Counted from the stretch's first letter, positions 508 through 61,506 are shown. The stretch is 64,000 nucleotides of DNA from Octopus vulgaris (GCA_951406725.2 OX597818.1:119970001-120034000), one strand, 5' to 3'. The notes: a model not told the origin generated them from the letters alone. Made by a program: numbers and translations.

Positions 508-3500
508 CTAGAAAACAAAATTTCAAATCAGTTGCATATTTTAAATTATCACCCACCAAAATATAAGATATTTGAAACAAAACAAGTTCTACATTTCAAA
601 CACAGCCATTATGGACTACATTCTCCTCCATCTTATTTTTAAATTTTCAGTACAAGGCCTTCCACTACACATAATATGCATAATTTTCTTTGACTGTACC
701 AGAGACTTGAATTATTTTCTCACAGTATTTTATTAAAAATTTCATATTGTATGTACACACACACAAACATATACACAGATACATACTGACACCCAGTAAG
801 AACAAAATAGTTCTTACTAAAGCAGTATGCAGTACATTTGTGTGTCCAAAGCTTGGTCAAGCTAGAATTAAATAATGTCAAAGAAGCAGCTCTGAATAAA
901 ATAATTCATGTAGAGTCGTATTTAACAAGTTTGATAAAACCATCTGTTGTGGAAATAGTCTAGAGAGAAGGAACAAAATTATTTTTACAGCATCTTAATC
1001 TATATTCATTTCTGCAAATTTCAGAGAAATTTTGCAAAGAAGAGAATGTGTTAAAAAGAAACTTGCTTCAGGTACAAGAGGGTAGAAAGCTTCTGCTGTA
1101 AAATGAATTTCCTGTTACAGCCTTCAAACAATTAAACTAATAAAAAAATGAGTGGCTGTGTGGTAAGTAGCTTGCTTACGAACCACATGGTCCCGGGTTC
1201 AGTCCCACTACGTGGCACCTTGGGCAAGTGTCTTCTACTATAGCCTCGGGCCGACCAAAGCCTTGTGAGTGGATTTGGTAGACGGAAACTGAAAGAAGCC
1301 CATCGTCCATATGTATATATATGCATATGCATGTGTGTGTATATGTTTGTGTGTCTGTGATTGTCTCCCCAACATCGCTTGACAACTGATGGTGGTGTGT
1401 TTACGTCTCCGTAACTTCGCGGTTCGGCAAAAGAGACCAATAGAATAAGTACTAGGCTTACAAAGAATAAGTCCTGGGGTCGATTTGCTCGACTAAAGGC
1501 GGTGCTCCAGCATGGCCACAGTCAAATGACTGAAACAAGTAAAAGAGTAAAAAGAGAGTAAAAGAGTATATATACATACACTGTATTTGCTGGGCTTGGC
1601 AATGCAACGGTAGACATCACCCACTTCAGAACAAGGTAACACCGGAAATTGAGGATCACTTGAGGCATTAAATTGATCTGTAGAGACCAACATTGTCCAC
1701 TTCCACAATGAGCCTGGAATTAGAGTTCATTAGAATTGGTCAGAGAAGTAATGGTCTTGAGTTTATACATAGAAACTTCTTATGATGACTTTTATGCTGT
1801 ATACAACATGCAAGAGATCATTTGAGAGTATAATGTGCTTGGTAAAAGAAGTTTAGGGCAAATTTTGGTATTCAAGTACTCAGCTGCTTTAGGAGAAGTT
1901 ATTGATTTCTTAAAGCATAATCGTATATCACATATAAAATAGTTTTTAAAAAAAAATTAATATCATTTCTTCACTGCCCACAAGGGACTACACACAGAGG
2001 GGACAAACAAGGACAGACAAATGGATTAAGTTGATTATATCGATCCCCAGTGCGTAACTGGTACTTCATTGAAACATCATCACCACCTTTCCGAATCCTG
2101 TAGTATTTCACATGGAATTTTTGGTCTTCTAAAGTCACCTAGGAGTATAAGTCAGCCTTCCCCTTTTGGCTTTCTTTTTACTTGTTTCAGTCATTTGACT
2201 GCGGCCATGCTGGAGCACCGCCTTTAGTCGAGCAAATCGACCCCAGGATTTATTCTTTGTTAGCCTAGTACTTATTCTATCAGTTTCTTTTGCCGAACCT
2301 CTAAGTTACGGCGACATAAACACACCAGCATCGGTTGTCAAGCGATGTTGGAGGGGACAAACACACACACATATATATCATCATCATCAAAAGCGGACGT
2401 TAAACGATGATGATGATTATATATATATATATATGTGTGTGTGTGTTTGTCCCCCCAACATCACTTGACAACCAATAGAATAAGTACTAGGCTTACAAAG
2501 AATAAGTCCTGGGTCAATTTGCTCAACTAAAGGTGGTGCTCCAGCATGGCCGCAGTCAAATGACTGAAACAAATAAAAGAATGCCAACCACTTTACAGAG
2601 TGTGCTTTTTATGTGGCACCGGTAGAGGGCTCTTGCAGATCAATCCTCTTCACCAGGAATAGTGGCCTTAACATTTCTGTTGAGGAGTACAGGTCAAAAC
2701 TCCAAAAAATAATTATTTCGCGTTCTCTCGAAGTTTATACTTATGACATCAAAACAGAAGATGTTTAAAAGAATGACAGATAAATGAATGGTTCTAGAAT
2801 GAACAAAATCGATAAAGTTTTTTTTTTTACCTGGTCGCCACATTTCATTGCAATCAAGAGCAGCAAAAGGAGGTCACGAGTGGCATTTAGACGAGTGCAA
2901 ACAAAATGTTCCATATGTGCAATAATGACAGATGTTGCACAGTTACTTGCAAAAAGCTGACCCCAATCAATCTGTGATAAGAGACCTGCAAAGAAAGAAA
3001 ACAGCAGAATAATTATATATTTTTTTTCTTTTTTAATTCCTTCACTAATCTTTGAAACAGAATAGGTACTGTAAATTTAGAGTGGATACTTGATAAGTGT
3101 AAGCACCTGTATATGCCACATAGTGGCAGAGGTGAGAGAGTATATATCAAGTATATTTGCGGCTGAAGAGAGCTTTAAACCATCTTTTATATCAATAAAT
3201 ACACTGATGTAATAACGGATTATTTATAAAGCTTGAAACATGTGTACCGCAATATCCTTTGTGTTCTGTTTTTAATTTATATTTGAAACAGAATATTTAG
3301 AACATGTTTACTCAAGCATAGAACTGGGGCTGGATAGATTTTCAAATTTGGACAATAATTCTATTTGGTCAATCTTTTACAGCCACTGGACAAATGTTGA
3401 GATACGCCTTATTTTCCCTATTATTGTTTTTTTATAACTCTGAACTTGATGTACCTGTTATGTATGTGTGGCCCACCATAGATACTTCTATTTAATTCTA

Positions 3501-6500
3501 CTGTACCCATATGACTCTGGCTAATTATTCTTCTCCAAAGCTACAACACAACAAAGTCCCATCTTTTCTGGTATAGATTCTCTCTTTCACTTGTTTCAGT
3601 CATTGAACTGCAGCCATGCTGGAGCACCACCTTGGAGGTTTAGTTGAACAAAATGCTCTTAGTATTTATTCTTTGAGCTGGCTACATATTCTATTGGTTC
3701 CATTTTGCCGAACCACTAAGTTATGGTGACATAAATACACCCACACTGACAGTCAAGTGACAGTAAAGGACAAACACAAACATACATGTACACTCAGACT
3801 CCTTTCAGTTTTTGTCTACTAAGCTCACTGACATTGGTCAGTCTAGGGTAGCAGAAGATACTTGCTTAAGGTACCATGCAGTGGGACCAAACTTGGAACC
3901 CTAACTTTTAGTCAATTGATTCAATTAAAAAATCTTTAAGGTGGTGCCCCAGCATGGCCATAGTCTAACAACTGAAAGAAGTAAAGGATAACAGATAGAC
4001 TAAATGTTCACATTTACCAAATTACACTTTAATCCTTCAGCATTTAAACAAACCATATCCACCCCAAATACTCTTCGTTCTATACTCAAACCAGCCAGGT
4101 CTGGCTTCTCACACCTACCTACTATGTCATTATAAAAATAAGCTATCACATTATCAAAATCTTGAAGTTACATGACAATGCATGATTAACTTAAAATGAT
4201 GTGAATGAATAAATATTACATTTGACAGAAAAATCTGAATGCTAAAAGGAATAAACAACATTTTATCCACTCTTTACCTGTTGTTGTACAGTAAAAGGTA
4301 TGGTTTTCAAGCCACTTTGCCTGTAAACAAGCAACCCTTGTTGTAACAATCACTCACGGAAAAGGTAAAGGATACCTTCTCAAGTCATACTGACTCATAA
4401 GGGGCAGTTTCCTAGTTTCTATGGCATATAAATTTTTCCCCTGGACAAGACGCTGGGGCCAGTTTCCTAGTTTCCACAGCATATAAATTTTTCACCTGGA
4501 CAAGACGCTGGGGCCAGTTTCCTAGTTTCCATGGCATATAAATTTTTCACCTGGACAAGCGCTGGGACCAGTTTCCTAGTTCTCATGGCATATAAATTTT
4601 TCACCTGGACAAGACGCTGGGGGTGGTTTCCTAGTTTCCATGGCGTATAAATTCTTCACCTGGACAGGACGTTGGTCCGTTCACAGGATTACTCATTTCT
4701 GCCAGGTGAGAGGACTGGAGCAACATGAAATGAAGCATTTCACTCAAGAACACAACGTGTTGCCTGGTTCGGGAATCGAAACCACAATCTTACAATCACG
4801 AGTCCAACACCCTAACCACTATGCCACACACCACTCACTATGGAACACATATACAGAGAAAAGCATTTCAAACTTACGTGATGAATCATTAAGATCCAAA
4901 GAGTCCAGTTGTAGTGTGCTGAGGTTTAAATGGGCGGAAATCACACGAACAGCATTGACTAAATCAATTACATTTTCCAAGTGAGATTTGATGTTGTCAA
5001 TCAGAAGGTCATTCAAAGCTAAACTGATTTTAGATAAACAGAAAAGAAAAAAAAAGAATTCATAAACAGAAACAATCTAATAACAATTTTCTAAGCAGAT
5101 ACAAAAACATTATTTAAATATTTTTTTCAAGTTAAAGTATTTCAACTTTTTACTAATTTAATTTTCTGCAGGTCCAAAACCAGCTTGATGTCTGGGGTGA
5201 ATAAGGCCAACAAAACTGTACAATATGAAAGGGGTTTAAAAGAACAAATATACTGCATCATTGATTGTGTGGATTAAGAAAGAAGGTATTCAGATCTTGC
5301 GTAGAATGGTCCATTCGAAAAATATATTGCAGTCTCCACCCAAAGCCTTTCTTGATTTCTGCAGGAGAACTCTAGGAGAAATTAACTGTAGTACTTCAAT
5401 GTGAAGGTGTGTGGCTTAGTGGTTAGGGTGTTGCACTCATGATCACCAAAACATGGGTTGGATTTCCAGATTGGGTGGTGTATTGTGTTCTTGAGCAAAA
5501 CACTTCATTTCTCACTGCTCCAGTGCTCTGTGGGTACCAGCATGTCAAAGAACAGACCCAGCGTTTCCTCTGTGTTGTAAAACAAGGTGACTAAAAAAGA
5601 CTGAGGTAGGATTTGCACTCCAACCTCATAAAACCCTCACCCACAATGACTACCCAAACAAACACATGGGTTAGAGGCTTGTCACCTGAATGATGCAAAG
5701 GTCTCATCAGCCAGAAGTTGGCCATCACCAACAAATGGCCAATACGGCAACATGCTGCTACAGCACATACCCACATACTATTACTAATACTTCAATTACA
5801 CAGCTAATTAAACAACAACCAGCAAGTCATAATAAAGGGTTGCATACATACAAAAGCATGAAACATTGATGTCATACTGTTATTTCTTTCAATTGTTTCA
5901 GTCATTTGACTGTGGCCATGCTGGAGCACCAGCTTTAGTCAAACGAATTGACCCCCAGGACTTATTCTTTGTAAGCCTAGTACTTATTCCATCAGTCTCT
6001 TTTGCAGAACCACTAAGTTACGGGGACGTAAACACCAACATCGGTTGTCAAAGTGATGGTGGGGGACAAACACAGACACACAAACATATATATATATTAT
6101 ATATACATACACATTCACACACATGACAGACTTCTTTCAGTTTCTGTCTACCAAATCCACTCATTAGGCTTTGGCCGAACCGAGGCTATAGTAGAAGACA
6201 CTTGCCACAAGTGCCATGCAGTGGGAATGAACCCAGAACCATGTGGTTGGGAAGCAAGATTCTTACCACACAGCTATACCTGTGCCTATACTTAAATACA
6301 AATCATAGAAAATTTTGAAAACACATACCAAGAATCTACCAAGCTTCCAGCGGCCTGTTCAAGGTCTAGGGTCACTGAAGCTTCGTATTCCAGTTGGCTC
6401 CCAAGGTCCTCACTGATATCTCCAGCTATAAGCTGCATACATTTGAATACATGTAGTACATCTGTGACCATGTGGCCCTCTACAAAAAAACAATAAATAA

Positions 6501-60996: not shown

Positions 60997-61169
60997 GGTT
61001 CATTCCATTAGGAACATAGCAGAGTACAAAATAGAGCTCATTCACCCTTAGAATTACCAAATAGCTGGTAGTATTACAATATACTACCGAGTCTAGGTTT
61101 GGGCATTCTTCGTGTGTGAAAATAAAATTGAATAAGATAGAGTCAGCAAGAAGAAGTATGGTTAGATAG

Positions 61170-61506
61170 TTATTTTATAATTACTACACACGTTTCCATA
61201 CAACATAGATCTTCATATATACAGGTATTTGATTATGCAATGGTTTACCTGTATAATGGGATCCAGTAGTATTTCTTCAGGTAATATATAGTTGCTGTCC
61301 CCGTTAATTACAAAACCTTCGACTTCGATGTTAACATAGTCATCTGCCTTGTTGATTAGGTTTTGTAACTAACGGGGACAGTAATAGTATATTACCTGGA
61401 GAAATACAACTGGATTCCATTCTACAGGTAAACCGTCGCATAATTAAATTCCTGTATATATGAAGATTTATGTTGTATGAAAACATGTGTAGTGATTATA
61501 AAATAA
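61170..61506. repeat. Long palindrome / fold-back element (about 148-bp arms) with HHR-like remnants near the arm ends
   Basis: Arms pair along their length; outward-facing TGAAGA...GAAAC-RTGT-GTA remnants. Confidence 0.75.

What the first reader, a model, noticed from the sequence alone, without database searches (positions are those of the whole stretch)
3157..61506. Recurrent system of ORF-less fold-back elements carrying type I hammerhead ribozymes (at least five unrelated families)
Seen in sequence: CTGANGA (or CCGATGA)-stem II-GAAA-stem III-GUH-stem I architectures at 3157-3252(+), 48006-48056(-)/49484-49534(+), 50994-51036(-), 54260-54311(+) and 59325-59412 (both strands). Decayed versions occur at about 12120, 20820-20852, 30030-30052, 54617-54660, 58805-58840, 61180-61500 and 62455-62485. 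The families share no long homology, yet most sit in inverted arms and most have palindromic or quasi-palindromic stem III regions (ACATGT, ACTAGT, ACAGCTGT, ACTC-A-GAGT). Established knowledge: minimal type I HHRs with palindromic stem III occur in the pseudo-LTRs of Penelope-like elements and in retrozymes, and can cleave as dimers; PLE insertions often have an inverted 5' copy and a short 3' tail. Inference: this genome hosts a diverse, probably under-annotated population of non-autonomous ribozyme retro-MITEs, mobilised in trans by PLE RT/GIY-YIG proteins.
Basis: partly seen in the sequence, partly recalled or inferred. Interest (0 to 1): 0.8.

Follow-up and report, generated by a model that had tools for sequence, protein, structure and literature searches.

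The report
Penelope retroelement ends, one tRNA-headed
The hammerhead-ribozyme motifs are real and likely mark leftover tail ends of Penelope-like jumping genes, a known pattern, but one very abundant family also carries a tRNA-like start and is likely a short non-coding element that borrows Penelope enzymes, an arrangement I did not find in the papers searched.

Summary
The motifs are real. A relaxed type I hammerhead descriptor finds 8 sites against 0.05 by chance, including all 7 main sites named; 5 of 7 'decayed' sites hold up. Only 3157-3252 passes the strict descriptor: the others have a mismatch closing stem II, and two families have U4C.

Eight of 13 insertions are head-to-head pairs; 6 of those 8 have a tail on one arm only, the published signature of Penelope-like element (PLE) insertions, not of MITE terminal repeats. 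The two ribozymes lie on opposite strands, so they cannot dimerise in cis. No PLE ORF was found.

One family (F1: 11.8, 20.7, 34.4 kb) is more than a truncated end. Laid reads show a roughly 255-nt ORF-less unit in tens of thousands of contigs, with a sharp 5' edge at a tRNA-like head (exact A and B boxes), a textbook minimal hammerhead in its majority letters, and two 3' ends 27 nt apart. It is likely a PLE-mobilised SINE. RNA reads showed no cleavage ends. Named proteins place F1 in Octopus.

The parts
3157..3252 (+). Family A: type I hammerhead motif, solo; 6-bp stem I, long stem II closed by G-U, quasi-palindromic stem III, GUA site; intronic and antisense to the Nup160-like gene
   Evidence: only strict hit; Nup160 Pfam pieces on the minus strand at 2765-3073 and 22921-23274
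11831..12207 (.). F1 head-to-head insertion; left arm has the 27-nt tail; centre at the 5' end of the tRNA-like head
11992..12063 (-). F1 tRNA-like head: A box and B box with no mismatch, 45 nt apart, anticodon-like loop at the class I tRNA position
   Evidence: 5 such heads in the window against 0.10 by chance; no Rfam tRNA or ARAGORN hit
20736..21345 (.). F1 head-to-head insertion with about 85 nt of extra upstream sequence in both arms; tail on the left arm
20810..20856 (-). F1 minimal hammerhead, one core change in this copy (G12 lost); the majority of laid contigs and reads carry G12
   Evidence: (84%, 85% and 70% in X1, X9, X22)
20935..20989 (-). F1 tRNA-like head in the 20.7 kb left arm; laid depth falls sharply just past 20989
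20736..20762 (-). F1 optional 3' tail (27 nt) between the two 3' ends
   Evidence: loose-end pile-ups at 20736 and 20762-20764
20736..20885 (-). ATG-started open frame of 50 codons running to the tail end; possibly the start of the parent PLE ORF (inferred, no PLE protein match)
   Evidence: (192 of 20,000 shuffles)
22225..22340 (-). Diverged solo relative of the F1 3' module (73% over 64 nt), no head
34365..34788 (.). F1 3' module as a head-to-head insertion with a different, head-less upstream sequence; tail on the left arm; motif decayed or deleted
47828..47860 (+).
47991..48105 (-). Family B left arm (99% like the right arm), motif at 48006-48056, no tail
49435..49622 (+). Family B right arm, motif at 49484-49534, then a 73-nt tail ending in (TA)n; about 1.3 kb of mostly TA/TG low-complexity DNA lies between the arms
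50831..51150 (.). Family C fold-back; motif only in the left arm (50994-51036, minus strand); centre at a short hairpin
54260..54311 (+). Family D motif (U4C core, A-A closing stem II, perfect 8-nt palindromic stem III), solo, between TA-rich microsatellites
54617..54720 (+). Decayed D relative in the same orientation, 71% identity
58612..58873 (.). Older E-family fold-back (E2), motif decayed, 74-nt tail on the left arm
59221..59450 (.). Young E-family fold-back: 99% perfect palindrome 59287-59450 with a U4C motif on each strand, 66-nt tail on the left arm, (TA)n on both sides
61147..61529 (.). Family G fold-back, arms 85% alike; left arm passes the relaxed descriptor (61180-61285, minus strand)

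Best explanation
These are real type I hammerhead motifs that likely sit in the 3' ends (pseudo-LTR plus tail) of several Penelope-like retroelement families, probably laid down as head-to-head pairs during insertion; one family, F1, has a tRNA-like head and is likely a SINE-type element copied by Penelope enzymes. SHOWN: the motifs, the head-to-head orientation, the one-sided tails, the differing centres, and F1's abundance, 5' edge, A and B boxes and two 3' ends. INFERRED from published PLE biology: a PLE RT/GIY-YIG protein nicks AT-rich or (TA)n DNA and starts reverse transcription at one of two internal sites near the RNA 3' end. Copying stops early or turns back at a short hairpin or palindrome, giving a second, inverted arm without the tail. 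The ribozyme is carried along. After insertion it is predicted to be silent, because the two motifs are on opposite strands and a read-through RNA folds arm on arm, and it decays like neighbouring DNA. For F1 (inferred), RNA polymerase III would transcribe head, (AAT)n, hammerhead and tail. The cut site lies between the promoter and the priming sites, so head-bearing copies would have to come from uncleaved RNA.
For: 8 motifs against 0.05 by chance. 8 of 13 insertions are head-to-head and 6 of those 8 have a one-sided tail. This matches the inverted 5'-truncated copy and tail of PLEs (PMC8557442 passages; PMC3846280 passages) and the two RT start sites bounding the tail (PMC11167929). F1 majority letters give the min-HHR of PMC4209133: extra base after A9, G10.1-C11.1, palindromic zero-loop stem III. 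F1 was laid on 53,411 and 38,910 contigs in two contig runs. Head depth is 0.66-0.82 of the middle module in 4 of 4 runs, and upstream depth is 0.03-0.21 of the head. In the window the head occurs only joined to the module (2 of 3 insertions). A and B boxes are exact at 45-nt spacing, like four other heads in the window, against 0.10 by chance. There is no T4 run in either F1 left arm (16% of windows lack one). The CpG inside the stem III palindrome is changed in 31-33% of contig depth, the highest among the CpG-type changes tallied (4-19% elsewhere), so it is not being preserved. E folds as one hairpin of -135.9 kcal/mol. PLEs cover 6.83% of the O. vulgaris genome, with recently active families (PMC13282606).
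Against: No PLE RT or GIY-YIG sequence was found. Pfam on 16 window-derived frames gave none, and four protein searches with two candidate ORF starts found only translations of F1 itself or spurious repeats. Tails of B and E (66-74 nt) are longer than the usual 30-40 nt; C and G show no clear tail. No convincing TSD was found except a weak one at 34.4 kb. The F1 head is not recognised by ARAGORN or Rfam and matched no phage record. RNA reads cover both strands about equally (0.50-0.52) and show no pile-up of ends, so neither a Pol III start nor cleavage is seen. A test of whether the two arms of an F1 insertion share private changes was inconclusive (12 vs 14 vs 10 columns). Depth sums are not copy numbers, and part of the head depth could come from free-standing heads. 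The genome itself could not be searched.
Confidence: 0.75

Rival explanations
1. F1 is also just truncated ends of an autonomous PLE whose pseudo-LTR happens to hold an old tRNA or SINE fragment. The sharp 5' edge comes from a short palindrome there that makes reverse transcription turn back, not from a Pol III start.
For: A minority of copies run on upstream (3-21% of head depth), including the 20.7 kb insertion. Loose ends at 20988-20989 form a short palindrome, and the 20.7 kb centre also sits at a short hairpin. PMC3846280 proposes self-priming at such palindromes. One of three insertions has a different upstream sequence. A 50-codon frame runs to the tail end. RNA shows no strand bias.
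Against: The edge falls at the position expected for tRNA +1; the A box, B box and spacing are exact; there is no T4 terminator in the unit. Depth between tail and head stays within about 2-3 fold and then falls steeply, unlike gradual truncation. No long coding parent was found.
Confidence: 0.3
2. All families are non-autonomous 'retro-MITEs' that move as whole palindromes and use an active dimeric ribozyme to release their RNA.
For: No ORFs; many families; palindromic stem III segments can pair between molecules (-3.1 to -12.8 kcal/mol); many F1 copies share one centre.
Against: Centres differ within families and the ends are asymmetric. The motifs are on opposite strands and are sequestered by the arm duplex. 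Five families have an unpaired 10.1-11.1 position, which PMC3088659 used as a rejection rule, and two have U4C, described there as lowering activity in vitro. No cleavage ends appear in 15,873 laid RNA reads of F1.
Confidence: 0.12
3. They are tandem non-LTR retrozymes that amplify through circular RNAs.
For: Type I hammerheads without ORFs; D and its relative lie about 350 nt apart in one orientation; retrozymes derive from PLE pseudo-LTRs (bioRxiv 10.64898/2026.07.22.740005).
Against: No head-to-tail array of any family in the window. The two D copies are only 71% alike. None of the 15 best-supported joints in the F1 reads goes back on the same strand (197 more were not shown).
Confidence: 0.07
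4. The fold-backs are DNA-transposon MITEs with terminal inverted repeats, and the motifs are chance.
For: Long inverted arms; TA flanks.
Against: 8 motifs against 0.05 by chance; one-sided tails; arms meet at variable centres; the same modules occur solo.
Confidence: 0.03

Closest known systems
Insertion units of endonuclease-bearing Penelope-like elements (Penelope/Poseidon, Neptune, Nematis): pseudo-LTR, inverted 5'-truncated copy, one-sided tail (PMC8557442 passages and supplement search; PMC3846280 passages; PMC11167929 parts 1-2 of 4)
   Same: Head-to-head arms, tail on one arm, two 3' ends, AT-rich or (TA)n targets, short palindromes at the inverted junction, hammerhead near the 3' end.
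   Different: No ORF seen here; B and E tails are 66-74 nt rather than 30-40; the clade could not be assigned.
Minimal type I hammerheads of metazoan PLEs (PMC4209133, parts 1-2 of 4)
   Same: F1 majority letters and the 47828 motif fit the descriptor (extra base after A9, zero-loop palindromic stem III). That paper also reports opposite-strand pairs 100-700 bp apart and mostly single motifs from truncated PLEs.
   Different: B, C, D, E and G have longer stem III segments (6-16 nt) and a mismatch at 10.1-11.1; D and E have U4C. I did not see these features in the parts read; the paper on dimer-cleaving variants (PMC5785218) was not available.
Schistosome SINE-like hammerhead repeats (Sm-alpha, Sj-alpha), as reviewed in PMC6765202 (passages) and PMC4918200 (section 10 and passages)
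   Same: A tRNA-derived Pol III promoter and a type I hammerhead in a short ORF-less repeat.
   Different: Those are described as tandem repeats cleaved out of multimers. F1 is dispersed, has a minimal dimer-only motif, PLE-type double 3' ends and head-to-head insertion, and keeps the head on most copies.
Animal non-LTR retrozymes (PMC7229834 passages; bioRxiv 10.64898/2026.07.22.740005 parts 1-3 of 5) and non-autonomous Chlamys elements such as MRC1 (PMC8557442)
   Same: ORF-less, PLE-derived, thought to be moved in trans; PMC8969392 notes that retrozymes may count as a new type of SINE.
   Different: Retrozymes are defined by head-to-tail tandems with canonical motifs and circular RNAs; none was seen here.
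tRNA-derived SINEs (definition in PMC8969392 passage; octopus OK, OR1 and OR2 known to me only from a reference title in PMC10886601 and from recall)
   Same: Length, A and B boxes near the 5' end, high abundance, no ORF.
   Different: The 3' end is PLE-like instead of LINE-like, and copies insert as inverted pairs.

Membership tests
Type I hammerhead (canonical) | Core C3 U4 G5 A6 N7 G8 A9, G12 A13 A14 A15, U16 H17 with stems I-III | tested here: met
   A, B, C, G meet the core; D and E carry U4C; 8 hits against 0.05 by chance
Type I hammerhead (canonical) | Paired positions next to the core, including 10.1-11.1 (rule of PMC3088659) | tested here: not met
   Only A passes, with G-U; B, C, D, E and G have a mismatch
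Type I hammerhead (canonical) | Rfam Hammerhead_1 match | tested here: not met
   None in 150 of 198 rows shown or in three small-region scans
Type I hammerhead (canonical) | Self-cleavage | not testable with these tools
   No pile-up of read ends in two RNA runs for F1; fragmented libraries may not show it
Minimal PLE hammerhead (Cervera and De la Pena 2014) | Extra base after A9, G10.1-C11.1, palindromic 15.2-16.2 with little or no loop III | tested here: met
   F1 by majority letters; 47828-47860 with G-U and a 3-bp stem I
Endonuclease-bearing PLE insertion | Adjacent inverted 5'-truncated copy, head to head | tested here: met
   8 of 13 insertions
Endonuclease-bearing PLE insertion | Tail at one end only; two alternative 3' ends | tested here: met
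   6 of 8 pairs; read pile-ups at 20736 and 20762-20764
Endonuclease-bearing PLE insertion | Link to an ORF with RT and GIY-YIG domains | tested here: inconclusive
   None in 16 window-derived frames or four protein searches; no genome held
Endonuclease-bearing PLE insertion | Variable TSD or microsatellite target | tested here: inconclusive
   (TA)n flanks for B, E, E2; only a weak TSD at 34.4 kb
MITE (TIR DNA transposon) | Symmetric terminal inverted repeats, uniform length, fixed TSD | tested here: not met
   Asymmetric ends and differing centres
Non-LTR retrozyme | Head-to-tail tandem units, each with a hammerhead | tested here: not met
   None in the window; not tested genome-wide
Non-LTR retrozyme | Circular RNA | tested here: inconclusive
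   No back-joint among the 15 joints shown; 197 not shown
tRNA-derived SINE (F1 only) | Internal Pol III A and B boxes near the 5' end | tested here: met
   No mismatch, 45-nt spacing, 5 heads against 0.10 by chance
tRNA-derived SINE (F1 only) | Short, ORF-less, dispersed, high copy, defined 5' end | tested here: met
   About 255 nt; 53,411 and 38,910 contigs laid; upstream depth 0.03-0.21 of the head; only a 50-codon frame
tRNA-derived SINE (F1 only) | Recognisable homology to a tRNA gene | tested here: inconclusive
   Layout fits, but ARAGORN, Rfam and a phage blastn gave nothing; a likeness to tRNA-Ile(AAU) is recalled, not tested
tRNA-derived SINE (F1 only) | 3' end shared with a LINE partner | tested here: not met
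   The 3' end has PLE features instead (hammerhead, optional tail, inversion); partner not identified
tRNA-derived SINE (F1 only) | Transcription by RNA polymerase III | not testable with these tools
   RNA reads are strand-balanced with no defined ends

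The most novel reading that the evidence does not exclude
F1 is a true Penelope-dependent SINE: a Pol III-transcribed, tRNA-headed RNA of about 255 nt that ends in a PLE pseudo-LTR with hammerhead and tail. 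It has reached on the order of 10^5 copies across Octopus species, inserts head to head at its own 5' end, and must escape its own ribozyme to be copied whole. It would be a dispersed SINE whose partner is a PLE rather than a LINE.
Probability: 0.45. Interest if true: 0.62.

Novelty: new variant of a known kind. Interest (0 to 1): 0.4.

Why it matters
Most of the finding is known PLE biology in a new genome. F1 matters if it holds. SINEs are normally defined as LINE-dependent, so a mass-amplified tRNA-headed element with PLE ends would extend that rule. It would also supply tens of thousands of natural insertions of one short template for open questions on PLE integration: where reverse transcription starts, how the inverted copy arises, and whether the hammerhead cuts at all. 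Its layout makes a sharp prediction, since cleavage would remove the promoter from the template. It may be among the 893 unclassified recently active SINE families counted in O. vulgaris (PMC13282606), or already named in a repeat database that I could not search. Head-to-head copies inside introns are also predicted sources of double-stranded RNA.

Tried and rejected
GENOME: none is held, so there are no genome-wide counts.

RNA FAMILY SCANS: Rfam gave only hairpin (miRNA-model) and weak matches. ARAGORN found 0 genes.

DNA SEARCHES: an F1 motif in metagenome contigs gave 0 hits. A D-type two-box pattern gave 44 loci, 0 of 44 closing stem I, kept only as a negative control. The F1 head against phage records gave no match.

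AUTONOMOUS PARTNER: P0001 found only an O. sinensis gene model whose first 36 residues are translated F1 and a 51-residue O. bimaculoides translation of F1. The 22.2-22.5 kb frame found nothing or two moth Myb models matched through an internal repeat, which I rejected as spurious.

SUPPLEMENTS: four short hammerhead motifs were absent from the PMC8557442 supplement, where line breaks can hide matches. The PMC13282606 supplement holds no sequences. The bioRxiv retrozyme supplements were not seen and PMC5785218 is not held; both may bear on the variant cores.

STATISTICAL TESTS THAT FAILED: A-to-I editing excess in RNA over DNA was not significant (37 of 83 vs 17 of 48 sites, p 0.36). The shared-private-change test for F1 arms was inconclusive. 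TSD search was mostly uninformative in microsatellites. Sites 30030-30052 and 62455-62485 were rejected as unconfirmed.

LITERATURE: four searches for a tRNA-headed, PLE-mobilised element and two on octopus repeats or hammerheads returned no description of F1. Subscription journals, Repbase, Dfam and SINEBase were not searchable.

Full report
SETTING. The window is AT-rich animal DNA with many SINEs and microsatellites. Pfam finds Nup160 pieces on the minus strand at 2765-3073 and 22921-23274, so the sites between lie in introns. No genome is held. Translations of one repeat family occur in named O. sinensis and O. bimaculoides protein records, which places that family in the genus Octopus.

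THE MOTIFS. A strict type I descriptor finds only 3157-3252. The same descriptor gave a mean of 0.05 and never more than 1 in 300 block dinucleotide shuffles. Stem I has a different sequence in each family but pairs in each. Among 44 metagenome loci holding both boxes of a D-type pattern, none closed 3 bp of stem I. The motifs are therefore not chance. They are not canonical either: B, C, D, E and G have an unpaired 10.1-11.1 position, a rejection rule in PMC3088659, and D and E have U4C, described there as lowering in vitro activity (passages). The mismatch is present in both near-identical arms of B and of E, and the extra A is in both D copies, so it is likely a family trait rather than decay. 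Rfam gave no Hammerhead_1 match. Of 7 'decayed' sites, 5 are homologues of intact ones; 30030-30052 and 62455-62485 lack stem I and are within chance. One more minimal motif lies at 47828-47860.

THE INSERTIONS. Counting every motif-bearing or homologous insertion gives 13. Eight are inverted pairs with their 5' ends facing (B, C, E, E2, G, three F1); five are solo. In 6 of the 8 pairs one arm runs on into a tail that the other lacks: 27 nt in F1 and 66-74 nt in B and E. B, E and E2 sit in (TA)n; TSDs are mostly unreadable. Centres differ between insertions of one family. This is the published PLE pattern. PMC8557442 describes an inverted 5'-truncated copy and a 30-40 bp tail at one end (passages). 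PMC3846280 describes head-to-head junctions with short palindromes (passages). PMC11167929 shows two internal RT start sites that bound the tail, with uncleaved RNA as the template (parts 1-2). PMC4209133 already noted minimal hammerheads on opposite strands 100-700 bp apart and as single motifs of truncated PLEs (parts 1-2). It is not the MITE pattern.

THE RIBOZYME IN A FOLD-BACK. The two motifs are on opposite strands, so one transcript carries only one of them in sense, and it is predicted to pair with its antisense arm (E folds as a single hairpin, -135.9 kcal/mol). Dimer cleavage in cis is thus excluded for these pairs.

FAMILY F1. In 2 of the 3 insertions the hammerhead module is preceded by (AAT)n and a tRNA-like head, and the head was found nowhere else in the window. 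At 12063 the A and B boxes match with no mismatch, 45 nt apart, with an anticodon-like loop in place. Five such heads occur in the window against 0.10 in shuffles. ARAGORN, Rfam and a phage search do not recognise the head.

F1 IN READS. Twenty listed runs from four organism labels and two metagenomes hold the stretch or part of it. I laid 4 of the 24 listed runs on one arm at 85% likeness. The two contig runs gave 53,411 and 38,910 contigs; the two raw RNA runs gave 8,785 of 12.9 million and 7,088 of 12.0 million reads. Head depth is 0.66-0.82 of the middle module, and depth upstream of the head is 0.03-0.21 of the head. Loose ends pile up at 20988-20989, where they form a short palindrome or run into the inverted partner, and at two 3' points, 20736 and 20762-20764. 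Summed depth divided by a typical contig depth is near 10^5, a rough scale only, since the tool warns that this is no copy number. Majority letters restore G12 (84%, 85%, 70%) and give the minimal PLE hammerhead. The CpG in its dimer palindrome is the most changed of those tallied (31-33% against 4-19%), so copies are not keeping it. An ATG-started frame of 50 codons runs to the tail end (192 of 20,000 shuffles), as pseudo-LTRs hold the start of the ORF in published PLEs, but it matched no PLE protein.

RESULTS AGAINST THE SINE READING. RNA reads are strand-balanced and show no defined ends. A minority of copies extend upstream, one of three insertions lacks the head, and the 5' edge coincides with a palindrome that could itself cause turn-back. 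The shared-change test on arms was inconclusive and the editing signal was not significant. No autonomous partner was found.

MECHANISM. Shown: motifs, orientation, tails, centres, and F1's boundaries and boxes. Inferred: PLE RT/GIY-YIG proteins prime at AT-rich nicks, start at one of two internal sites, and truncate or turn back to give the inverted arm; the ribozyme rides along and is silenced. For F1, Pol III would supply a short RNA, and because the cut site lies between head and priming sites, head-bearing copies would come from uncleaved RNA. I put 0.75 on this overall account and 0.45 on F1 being a true, undescribed PLE-dependent SINE.

NOVELTY. PLE ends with hammerheads in inverted pairs are known, and earlier unchecked notes of this scan reached the same view in other genomes (not evidence). 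A tRNA promoter plus hammerhead is known from schistosome tandem repeats (PMC6765202; PMC4918200). PLE-derived non-autonomous elements are known as retrozymes (bioRxiv 10.64898/2026.07.22.740005; PMC7229834) and MRC1. A dispersed tRNA-headed element with PLE-type double 3' ends and head-to-head insertion was not found in searches, nor in the parts read of two cephalopod repeat papers. Repeat databases and subscription journals were out of reach, so it may already carry a name. Verdict: new variant of a known kind, interest 0.4.

Noticed in passing
window 2765-3073, 21446-21811, 22921-23274 (minus strand): Pieces of a Nup160-like gene (Pfam matches for the first and last; the middle one judged by eye); family A and two F1 insertions lie in its introns.
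   Followed up: partly
P0002 (O. sinensis LOC115224785 isoform X2) vs window 20736-20885: The first 36 residues of this gene model are a translation of F1 (33 of 36 identical), which suggests that F1 serves as an alternative first exon of a Cys-rich membrane protein gene; P0005 is an O. bimaculoides F1 copy annotated as a 51-residue protein.
   Followed up: partly
window families B, C, D, E, G (48006-61285): Five families share an unpaired position closing stem II, A has G-U there, and two have U4C; this may be a recurring hammerhead variant class with longer stem III.
   Followed up: partly
window 49529-49622 and 59221-59328: The tails of B and E share a weak similarity after an AATAA motif, including a small hairpin; they may belong to one PLE clade that targets (TA)n.
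   Followed up: partly
window 9732-10082, 28099-28278, 45658-45839, 56609-56899: Four more fold-back elements without a detectable hammerhead; the first has another copy at 17047-17133. They may be MITEs or PLE pairs truncated past the motif.
   Followed up: no
window 20140-, 44924-, 49902-, 52189+: Four other tRNA-like heads with A and B boxes at 44-46 nt spacing, likely ordinary SINEs.
   Followed up: no
window F1 arms 11.8, 12.1, 21.2, 34.7 kb: Internal deletions often remove the hammerhead hairpin from one arm; several skips over 20805-20894 also appear among laid contigs.
   Followed up: no
window 38063-38515+, 42569-43000-, 46551-47482-: Mariner-type transposase fragment (Pfam HTH_48), a probable Tc1-type fragment and LINE-like fragments (the last two judged by eye, apart from a weak DUF6451 match).
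   Followed up: no
window 22187-22543 (minus strand): A 117-codon open frame runs through the diverged F1 relative; no credible protein match.
   Followed up: yes
P0003, P0004: Two moth Myb gene models carry a repeat of about 60 residues in many identical copies, probably an assembly or annotation artefact; they matched only through summed repeats.
   Followed up: no
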